From the NCBI GenBank assembly GCA_951406725.2, contig OX597824.1, positions 33,294,001-33,358,000 of the forward strand: a stretch of DNA of 64,000 nt. The letters run 5' to 3'. Under the pieces are notes generated by a model that worked only from the letters and a program-made list of their open reading frames with translations, was not told the origin of the DNA and searched no databases. Positions within the stretch are counted from its first letter, which is position 1. Every line of letters begins with the position of its first letter. Positions 35,045-36,497 of this stretch are shown here, one piece after another. A program made the translations under genes and the position numbers. Source of the stretch: Octopus vulgaris (Eukaryota).

Positions 35045-35276
35045 AACACAGTTGTCCGGAAAGAATCCATTAAGCGTCAGAAAAAATATCGCGCAATTAG
35101 ATTTGGCACGTGTACGTTCCGAGTTTAAATCTCAAACCCATATAAACAACCACTGAGATCGATTCAATCGATTATATCCTAAAATAGAGTGCTACAGTAT
35201 GGCCATAATCCAATGACTATAAGGAAAATAACATGATGATGTGACTAACAGCTTACAGATGTGACTAACAGCTTAC

Positions 35277-35732
35277 TTATTCTTTTCTACTCTTGGCACA
35301 AGGCTCGACATTTTTTTGTAGAAGTGGGGCAGTCGATTAGATCGACCCTAGTACGCAACTGGTACTTAATTTATCGACCCTGAAAGGATGAAAGACAAAG
35401 TCGACCTCGGTGGAATTTGAACTCAGAACGTAAAGACAGACGAAATACCTATTTCTTTATTACCCACAAGGGGCTAAACACAGAGGGGACAAACAAGGAC
35501 AGACATAGGTATTAAGTCGATTACATCGACCCCAGTGCGTAACTGGTACTTAATTTATCGACCCCGAAAGGATGAAAGGCAAAGTCGACCTCGGCGGAAT
35601 TTGAACTCACAACGTAACGCAGACGAAATACCGCTAAACATTTCGCCCGACGTGCTAACGTTTCTACCAGCTCGCCACCTTCAAACAGACGAAATACCGG
35701 CGTGTTAACGATTGTGCCAACTCGCCGCCCTG
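35277..35732 (-). mobile_element. Young SINE A (35450-35684) nested in an older SINE A
   Basis: Inner TSD ACAGACGAAATACC at 35436-35449 and 35685-35698; outer TSD CTAACAGCTTAC at 35265-35276 and 35733-35744. Confidence 0.9.
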
Positions 35733-35747
35733 CTAACAGCTTACCTA

Positions 35748-36450
35748 TGTAAACATTACTTATATTTTGACGGATATTTGTCCTCATCGAGTTTGTTGTT
35801 AACAGAACGTTTCGGCTGATGTACTCTCCAGCTTTATTAGGTCACTGCCTGGAATCGAACTCGGAATCTAGGGGTTAGTAGCCCGCGCTTTTAACCACCA
35901 TATGCCGTGGGCAATTATGGAGTGAATTTTAGGGCTTATAAATCTAATATTTTCCTATCCCTCCTTTATACTGGTTTCCATATGCTACTCATATTTGCAC
36001 TAGGATTGCTTAGGAGGTTATTATGTCCTAACAAATATGCTGCCTCTTTTAGTTTTCGTATTTTCCAGTGGTGTTCTCTGTCTATTACTTTAACTTCATC
36101 CCACAGGGGAAAAAACGGAGACCACCTCCCCACTGCGGGATGAAGTTAAAATAAAAGACAGAGAACACCAATGGAACATACGAAAACTAAAAGAAGCAGC
36201 ACATATGCTAGGACATAATAACCTCCAAAGCAGATCTAGTGCAGATATGAGCAACATATGGGAACCGGTGTTAAGGAAGGATAGGAAAATATTAGATTTA
36301 TAAGCCCTAAAGTTCATCCATAATGTGGTGCGGTGGTTAAGAGCGCGAGATACTAACCCCAAGATTCTGAGTTCGATTAACGTTAACAACAAACAAGATG
36401 AGGACATATATCCGTCAAATGTAAATAATGTAAATAATGTACATAGTTCC
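35748..36450. mobile_element. Palindrome of two inverted Penelope-like 3' ends (GIY-YIG C-terminus, tRNA-like segment, hammerhead-like motif)
   Basis: Arms ~35748-36110 and ~36127-36432; arms translate WDEVKVIDREHHWKIRKLKEAA / RDEVKIKDREHQWNIRKLKEAA..IWEPVL. Confidence 0.8.
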
Positions 36451-36497
36451 TCTTCTCTCAAATATAGAACTGAAATCTTGTAAAGTTGTTGACTACA

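What the first reader, a model, noticed from the sequence alone, without database searches (positions are those of the whole stretch)
35748..36450. Penelope 3'-end palindrome that places a tRNA-like Pol III head directly before a hammerhead-like motif
Seen: two inverted copies (~300-360 bp, 16-nt spacer) of a GIY-YIG C-terminus. After the stop, both arms carry a tRNA-like segment (tggtggttaaaagcgcgggctactaaccc..gagttcgattcc, A- and B-box-like). In the left arm (minus strand, ~35805-35845) this runs into CTAATAA-AGCTG-loop-CAGCC-GAAACGTT, a decayed CTGATGA..GAAA hammerhead layout; the right arm has that part deleted. Known: Penelope pLTRs often carry minimal hammerheads and form inverted structures, and Pol III head plus hammerhead units occur in Schistosoma SMalpha repeats. 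Inference: because the tRNA head sits at the same position in both arms, it may be a built-in part of this family, giving a Pol III-driven self-cleaving small RNA unit inside a Penelope end.
Basis: partly seen in the sequence, partly recalled or inferred. Interest (0 to 1): 0.7.

Follow-up and report, generated by a model that had tools for sequence, protein, structure and literature searches.

The report
Penelope retrotransposon with tRNA-derived promoter
This palindrome is two broken, back-to-back ends of an abundant protein-coding jumping gene whose repeat unit begins with a tRNA-like sequence and has no run of four T on its coding strand, so the whole element was likely read by RNA polymerase III, the enzyme that normally makes only small non-coding RNAs.

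Summary
The palindrome is real: two head-to-head, dead ends of a high-copy Penelope-type retrotransposon. The tRNA-like head is a fixed family feature (26 of 29 endonuclease-anchored copies; 21 of 23 long ORF copies). It does not sit directly before the hammerhead: intact copies have an (AAT)n tract and linker between them (54-138 nt), which the left arm has deleted. The family core is an intact minimal type I hammerhead. The 2.6-kb unit is circularly permuted: head, ATG, hammerhead inside the first codons, RT, endonuclease, stop, next head. So the head is the element's 5' start, not a 3' passenger. 24 of 30 head-bearing copies begin within -7..+5 of tRNA base 1. The coding strand has no T4 run, while all 21 related ORFs tested have 3-34. 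Best reading: a captured tRNA promoter drove RNA polymerase III transcription of the whole unit, and copying the first repeat shed about 10^4 SINE-like copies. Pol III use and cleavage are untested; a hairpin at the head is a rival cause of the 5' peak. The scan noted this family before on other DNA of this genome. I did not find it in print.

The parts
35746..36109 (-). Left arm: 5'-truncated copy of the Penelope end (unit 2420-2622, then 2-236 with deletions); ends at the shorter of the two family 3' ends
   Evidence: 3'-end classes
35936..36109 (-). C-terminus of the RT-endonuclease ORF with stop TAA at 35938-35936 (one premature stop at 35968-35966)
35907..35935 (-). 29 nt between stop and head; resembles a decayed inverted copy of the head's start and is predicted to pair with it (TGCCC-AC-GGGCA at the centre)
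35841..35906 (-). tRNA-like head; A box damaged by a 5-nt deletion, B box intact at 35862-35851
35836..35840 (-). Junction of a copy-specific deletion of about 72-75 nt that removed (AAT)n, linker, ATG and the 5' strand of hammerhead stem I
35801..35835 (-). Remnant of the minimal type I hammerhead: stem II, GAAACGTT (predicted cut between 35806 and 35805), 3' strand of stem I with G>C at 35805; predicted inactive
36111..36129 (+). The 'spacer': element sequence (unit 2402-2419) belonging to the right arm
36111..36472 (+). Right arm: second 5'-truncated copy, with the longer 3' end (the optional tail, to unit 263)
36133..36303 (+). C-terminus of the ORF with stop TAA at 36301-36303
36323..36378 (+). 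tRNA-like head (unit 5-60), followed by a deletion of unit 61-173 that removed the rest of the head and the hammerhead
36382..36472 (+). Sequence after the hammerhead and tail; this is the N-terminal coding sequence of the next unit

Best explanation
The palindrome is a dead head-to-head insertion of a Penelope/Poseidon-type retrotransposon whose terminal repeat begins with a tRNA-derived head that likely served as an internal RNA polymerase III promoter for the whole 2.6-kb coding unit. Shown: the unit order is head (1-72), (AAT)n, linker, ATG (110), hammerhead motif (139-184, inside the frame), RT, endonuclease, stop (2593), 29 nt, next head. Also shown: copies start in a sharp peak at the head, end at two points 30-35 nt apart, and the coding strand lacks T4. 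Inferred: (1) Pol III starts about 6 nt before tRNA base 1 and, meeting no T4, reads through the ORF into the next repeat. (2) The RT starts inside the RNA at the tail, as shown in vitro for the anole element. Starting in the second repeat gives ordinary 5'-truncated copies like these two arms. Starting in the first repeat runs off the RNA's 5' end and gives the short SINE-like copies that form the majority. (3) The short GC hairpin at that end lets the cDNA snap back, giving the many fold-back palindromes. (4) The hammerhead cut as a dimer or with protein help; the recurrent 3-nt gap at the cut site may be an RT jump across cleaved RNA via a GT microhomology. How an uncapped RNA was translated is unexplained.
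For: Head is fixed: 26 of 29 non-self loci found with the endonuclease end alone; 21 of 23 long ORF copies that reach the stop. 27 of 30 head-anchored copies continue into linker, hammerhead or tail. Head lies upstream of the ORF in tandem copies L211 and L229. The reading frame through the hammerhead matches the N-terminus of P0001 (45% over 260 aa). 5' ends: 24 of 30 within -7..+5, 2 more fold-backs at -17/-18, 1 at -20, 3 run on into the endonuclease; of 12 hammerhead-anchored copies that reach the head start, 9 stop there. Exact 41-mer counts: hammerhead 1117, head 494, endonuclease end 166, controls 0. The column majority has TGGCGTAGTGG and GTTCGATTCC at tRNA spacing (they fit the recalled A- and B-box consensus), while the cloverleaf no longer folds. 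Best match 49 of 77 to host tRNA-Arg, z 7.7 against shuffles. T4 runs: 0 in 2622 nt; 0.39 per kb in 30 decayed natural copies; 21 of 21 related ORFs have 3-34. The 7 controls with T content up to 0.235 give 3.4 per kb, i.e. 8.5 expected, Poisson P(0) 2e-4. 3-nt gap at the cut: 20 of 176 copies, not tied to any of 24 variable sites after allowing for multiple tests; 8.7-10.1% of reads in three RNA runs of organism B.
Against: No direct evidence of Pol III use. RNA-seq depth was equal in both directions with no pile-up of ends, and reads come from many old copies. Internal nulls for the missing T4 are weak: P 0.035 (synonymous shuffle), 0.079 and 0.23 (first- and second-order Markov), and G4 is also absent, though G4 is absent in 9 of 21 controls as well. 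The zero is measured on a column majority, the controls on single contigs from distant hosts. Rotifer Penelope repeats also have fixed 5' ends with 18-38-bp palindromes and were described with TATA/Inr-like motifs (PMC3846280, passages), so a 5' peak does not need Pol III; the hairpin here could cause it alone. The ATG lies upstream of the predicted cut, so cleavage would cut it off from the ORF (next Met at nt 410). The family is about 8-10% diverged, and no intact copy was found.
Confidence: 0.6

Rival explanations
1. The tRNA-derived piece is a passenger, or part of a Pol II promoter. The 5' peak comes from cDNA fold-back at the hairpin just before the head, and the lack of T4 is composition and chance.
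For: The 29 nt upstream resemble an inverted head and are predicted to pair with it. Many head-start copies are fold-backs. Palindromes at the 5' end of the repeat are known in rotifer Penelopes. D. virilis Penelope has a TATA-less, LINE-like internal promoter (PMC2377424, passages). The second-order Markov null gives P 0.23.
Against: Both boxes are kept while the tRNA stems are lost. 21 of 21 relatives have T4. The peak, the boxes and the missing T4 would be three coincidences.
Confidence: 0.2
2. Pol III makes only the template for the short copies (a Penelope-mobilised SINE built into its own parent), while the protein comes from Pol II read-through or a separate promoter.
For: Short head-start copies outnumber ORF-bearing ones. 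This removes the problem of translating an uncapped RNA. It is analogous to Cassandra/Helenus, where the Pol III promoter sits in non-coding repeats (PMC10886601, passages).
Against: There is no terminator after the tail, and T4 is missing along the whole ORF, which a short-RNA role would not select for. Two tandem copies start at the head and run into the ORF.
Confidence: 0.15
3. An independent SINE inserted once before the inversion, or a compact head-plus-ribozyme small RNA.
For: In the left arm the head does abut the hammerhead remnant.
Against: The adjacency is a deletion in this copy. The head follows the stop in 21 of 23 long copies. 27 of 30 heads carry Penelope sequence behind them; I saw no separate body shared by the rest.
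Confidence: 0.05

Closest known systems
Penelope/Poseidon PLEs, e.g. PAc of Anolis carolinensis (PMC11167929; abstract and main text read)
   Same: One ORF of about 830 aa with RT and C-terminal endonuclease; repeat that overlaps the ORF start; hammerhead within the first codons; two 3' ends (tail); inverted 5' copies. An 836-aa Anolis protein is a 35% hit (P0014; that it is PAc is my inference).
   Different: No tRNA-derived head or Pol III promoter is described there. Here the ATG lies 34 nt before the core rather than at stem II.
D. virilis Penelope promoter (PMC2377424, passages) and Adineta Pen2/Pen3a (PMC3846280, passages)
   Same: Internal promoter and start site in the terminal repeat; palindrome at the 5' end of the repeat; repeat includes the first codons.
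   Different: Those carry Inr/DPE or TATA/Inr-like motifs, and D. virilis has an intron. This one carries A and B boxes, and no intron was seen.
Minimal type I hammerheads of metazoan PLEs (PMC4209133; parts 1-2 of 4 read)
   Same: Short stem I (5 bp), long stem II (6 bp) with one unpaired base and a G-C closing pair, palindromic ACGT in place of stem III.
   Different: Nothing essential; U at the cleavage position, as in several relatives. Activity is untested here.
Schistosoma SMalpha Pol III + hammerhead repeats (via review PMC6765202, passages)
   Same: tRNA-type promoter upstream of a type I hammerhead.
   Different: SMalpha is non-coding and tandem. Here the unit is the 5' end of an autonomous coding element, and copies are dispersed or inverted.
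TRIMp3: Cassandra, Helenus, Ajax (PMC10886601, passages)
   Same: Small-RNA-derived Pol III promoter inside a terminal repeat, probably by SINE or tRNA capture.
   Different: Those are non-autonomous LTR elements of 0.3-1.3 kb, and the paper argues that autonomous partners must use Pol II. This is a 2.6-kb coding PLE.
Non-LTR retrozymes (bioRxiv 10.64898/2026.07.22.740005; part 1 of 5 and term search)
   Same: Short non-coding derivatives of the PLE repeat with a type I hammerhead.
   Different: Defined as tandem arrays; the text has no mention of tRNA or Pol III. Short copies here are not a diverged family but the parent's own repeat.

Membership tests
EN+ Penelope-like element (Penelope/Poseidon type) | Single ORF with RT | tested here: met
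   838-codon open frame in the column majority; PF00078 above cut-off in 3 of 4 natural stretches
EN+ Penelope-like element (Penelope/Poseidon type) | C-terminal GIY-YIG endonuclease | tested here: inconclusive
   The C-terminus aligns with full-length relatives. PF01541 itself scored only E 0.23 on P0001 and is listed for 1 of 46 homologues. The YKGETCR / R..EH motifs match the family by recall.
EN+ Penelope-like element (Penelope/Poseidon type) | Partial tandem giving pseudo-LTRs, inverted 5' copy, optional 30-40 bp tail | tested here: met
   3' ends at unit 226-239 (93 of 192) and 260-274 (66 of 192)
EN+ Penelope-like element (Penelope/Poseidon type) | Placement in the Penelope/Poseidon clade by RT tree | not tested
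   only pairwise identity (55% to P0001, 35% to the Anolis protein)
Minimal type I hammerhead | CUGANGA and GAAA core, stem II, stem I, palindromic 15.2-16.2, NUH site | tested here: met
   family majority and 1117 exact 41-mers; 34 of 145 core-spanning copies pass a strict core test; not met in either arm of this window
Minimal type I hammerhead | Rfam hammerhead model score | tested here: not met
   no hit
Minimal type I hammerhead | Self-cleavage | not testable with these tools
   indirect only: recurrent 3-nt gap at the predicted cut; no peak of copies starting at the cut
tRNA-derived SINE | tRNA-related head with A and B boxes at the 5' end | tested here: met
   ARAGORN and Rfam do not call it; isotype unresolved (7 isotypes among 37 host sequences)
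tRNA-derived SINE | Non-autonomous family distinct from its partner, sharing only a 3' tail | tested here: not met
   the short copies are the coding element's own repeat, head included
tRNA-derived SINE | Transcription by Pol III | not testable with these tools
   uninformative
Non-LTR retrozyme | Tandem arrays of hammerhead-bearing monomers | tested here: inconclusive
   copies seen were single, inverted or occasional direct pairs; no genome-wide array search was run

The most novel reading that the evidence does not exclude
An autonomous, protein-coding retrotransposon that captured a tRNA promoter, purged Pol III terminators from its whole 2.5-kb ORF, was transcribed end to end by Pol III and translated without a cap, and produced its own SINE-like swarm from its first repeat; the 3-nt gaps are a genomic record of hammerhead cleavage in vivo.
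Probability: 0.45. Interest if true: 0.85.

Novelty: new variant of a known kind. Interest (0 to 1): 0.64.

Why it matters
Protein-coding retrotransposons are taken to need Pol II, and Pol III promoters are known only in non-coding hitchhikers. A natural 2.6-kb Pol III coding unit would break that rule and raise a testable question about cap-independent translation. It would also show one direct route by which a SINE-like family arises from its own parent, and would mean that some repeats filed as SINEs are Penelope ends. The sharp 5' peak gives a defined start site for a PLE. The cut-site gap, if it is a scar, would be rare in vivo evidence that minimal PLE hammerheads cleave.

Tried and rejected
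ARAGORN (down to -ps85) and Rfam found no tRNA or hammerhead. The 'one-off SINE insertion' was rejected. No clear target-site duplication around the palindrome: only one 6-mer is shared by the flanks. Run search: no RNA holder listed; five organism labels hold the repeat. RNA reads of organism B showed symmetric depth and no end pile-ups. Laying DNA contigs on the window could not confirm the deletion junction: one 58-nt exact piece, with too few letters on one side. A metagenome scan with P0001 alone found nothing; the five-sequence alignment worked. Of 80 loci from that scan, 21 had a non-redundant stop-free RT stretch of 400 aa or more and were used; the other 59 were dropped. All 30 loci from a protein search of the genome were this same family, so no in-genome Penelope control was obtained. 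One genome search was mis-aimed and unused. A subfamily explanation of the 3-nt gap was not supported but not excluded (smallest p 0.026 among 24 sites). PMC5785218 is not held. Searches that found no report of a tRNA-headed or Pol III Penelope: (listings only, open-access library). Repbase, Dfam and paper supplements, such as the repeat library behind PMC13282606 (part 1 of 3 read), were not seen and may already hold this family.

Full report
Observation. The region holds an inverted repeat, core 35923-36109 and 36130-36316, 88% complementary. Each arm ends a reading frame that matches the C-terminus of full-length RT-bearing proteins. After the stop both arms carry a tRNA-like stretch. The left arm then runs into hammerhead stem II and GAAACGTT; the right arm has lost that part. 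The DNA between the arms is element sequence of the right arm. ARAGORN and Rfam report no tRNA or hammerhead.

The family. The window lies in a 2.8-Gb genome (an octopus is my unverified guess). The arm has 4306 first-look candidates. Aligned copies show the layout: stop, 29 nt, head, (AAT/AAC)n, about 50 nt of linker, then GACAC-CTGATGA-A-stem II-GAAA-CGTT-GTGTT and a tail. The left arm has lost about 72-75 nt between an ACCTGA at the end of the head and an ACCTGA at the core, so the adjacency in the finding's title is an accident of this copy. Head-to-core distance is 54-138 nt in the 13 of 30 head-anchored copies with a recognisable core. Searching with the endonuclease end alone, 26 of 29 non-self loci carry all or part of the head (some loci repeat those). 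Among long ORF copies that reach the stop, 21 of 23 are followed by it; in one miss it follows a short duplication. Exact 41-mers number 1117 (hammerhead), 494 (head) and 166 (endonuclease end), controls 0. With 3 of 55 copies exact for the hammerhead 41-mer, this suggests roughly 2 x 10^4 hammerhead-bearing copies, a rough figure.

The unit is circularly permuted. Walking upstream through the RT led back to the same tail, hammerhead and head. A column majority over these loci gives a 2622-nt unit with one 838-codon open frame. The first ATG is at 110, the core at 144, the predicted cut at 179/180 and the stop at 2593. A natural copy aligns through the hammerhead codons with the N-terminus of P0001 (45% over 260 aa). 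Natural stretches hit PF00078; the closest homologues are 660-1040-aa proteins, one from Anolis. This is the architecture described for PAc, where the hammerhead lies in the first codons and the RT starts at two internal sites that define the tail (PMC11167929, main text read). Here 3' ends cluster at unit 226-239 (93 of 192) and 260-274 (66 of 192). The window's left arm has the short end and the right arm the long one. So the head is the 5' start of the element.

5' ends. I took the first 30 copies on contig C1 that match the 3' half of the head exactly. 24 begin within -7..+5 of tRNA base 1, two are fold-backs scored at -17/-18, one begins at -20, and three run into the endonuclease. Of 30 hammerhead-anchored copies, 18 are truncated inside or behind the head; of the 12 that reach its start, 9 stop there. 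Many have an inverted partial copy or a perfect fold-back at that point, also seen as loose read ends in organism B. L211 and L229 start at the head and continue into the ORF; L225 passes through it.

Promoter signs. The majority head has TGGCGTAGTGG at tRNA position 8 and GTTCGATTCC at normal spacing (box consensus recalled). It no longer folds as a cloverleaf. It aligns best to host tRNA-Arg(TCG) and Arg(TCT), 49 of 77, among 37 host sequences of 7 isotypes; all tRNAs score above shuffles, so the isotype is open. The coding strand has no run of four T. Internal nulls make this only suggestive: P 0.035 (synonymous shuffle), 0.007, 0.079 and 0.23 (Markov orders 0-2); G4 is also zero. The external control is stronger. 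All 21 usable related ORFs from metagenome contigs (of 80 loci) have 3-34 T4 runs, 212 observed against 182 expected by the same shuffle. The seven with similar T content predict 8.5 runs, P(0) 2e-4, and 30 decayed natural copies of this family have 0.39 per kb against 3.4. One control locus, L295, has a tRNA-like A/B box followed by T5 upstream of its RT stretch; the other 20 show none. 29 of 37 host tRNA-like genes have T4 or more within 40 nt downstream.

Hammerhead. The family motif fits the minimal type I form of metazoan PLEs (PMC4209133, parts 1-2 of 4): 5-bp stem I, 6-bp stem II, palindromic ACGT, cut after U. 34 of 145 core-spanning copies pass a strict test; neither arm here does. 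A 3-nt gap at the cut is the commonest indel: 25 against 4 at the next 3-nt site, 20 of 176 after removing duplicates, unlinked to 24 variable sites, and 365 of 3750, 300 of 2975 and 237 of 2731 reads in organism B. An RT jump from the cleaved 3' piece to the GT two bases upstream would give exactly this gap (inference). Slippage, or an in-frame subfamily, would too. No peak of copies starts at the cut.

Mechanism. Most likely Pol III started just before the head and read the T4-free unit into the next repeat. RT initiation at the tail of the second repeat gave truncated copies such as these arms; initiation in the first repeat gave the SINE-like majority. Against this stand the lack of any transcript evidence, the hairpin at the head, known 5' palindromes in rotifer Penelope repeats (PMC3846280, passages), and the problem of translating an uncapped RNA whose ATG precedes the cut. 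Self-cleavage can support cap-independent translation in viruses (PMC13725137, abstract only), but there the ribozyme is in the 5' UTR.

Prior work. Described PLE promoters are Pol II-like (PMC2377424, passages; PMC8557442, passages). Pol III promoters with hammerheads are known in Schistosoma repeats (PMC6765202, passages), and in terminal repeats of non-autonomous LTR elements (PMC10886601, passages). Searches listed no paper on a tRNA-headed coding Penelope; repeat databases and supplements were not seen. Earlier notes of this scan reached the same reading on other copies. I had the family layout and the 5' peak before reading them. They gave me the leads on the permuted coding unit, T4 and the 3-nt gap, which I then tested, adding the external T4 control.

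Verdict. This locus itself is a dead, doubly deleted copy. The family is a new variant of Penelope with a tRNA-derived 5' head, likely a Pol III promoter (0.6). Interest 0.64.

Noticed in passing
L261-L290 (e.g. L049:1880-2060): A second abundant repeat of about 250 nt with a hammerhead-like core (CTGACGA..GAAACGTT), flanked by (TA)n, T-rich on the core strand, 95-97% alike, 2038 candidates; no ORF link seen.
   Followed up: partly
L045, L051, L083, L086: The head (in L051 only the 29 nt before it) and the (AAT)n tract run straight into a different RT-type element; either insertion into the microsatellite or template-switch chimeras.
   Followed up: no
L295:3050-3170: A metagenome Penelope-type locus with a tRNA-like A/B-box stretch and T5 about 480 nt before its RT stretch.
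   Followed up: no
window 35244-35746: Two tandem SINE-like repeats (103 nt, 92%, spacing 184) lie between short repeats of ctaacagcttac, just left of the palindrome.
   Followed up: no
L376: A cluster of at least nine tRNA-Cys-like genes within 3 kb.
   Followed up: no
L233, L237: Long, nearly open copies of this family (569 codons without a stop; 803 with two stops); no fully intact copy was seen.
   Followed up: no
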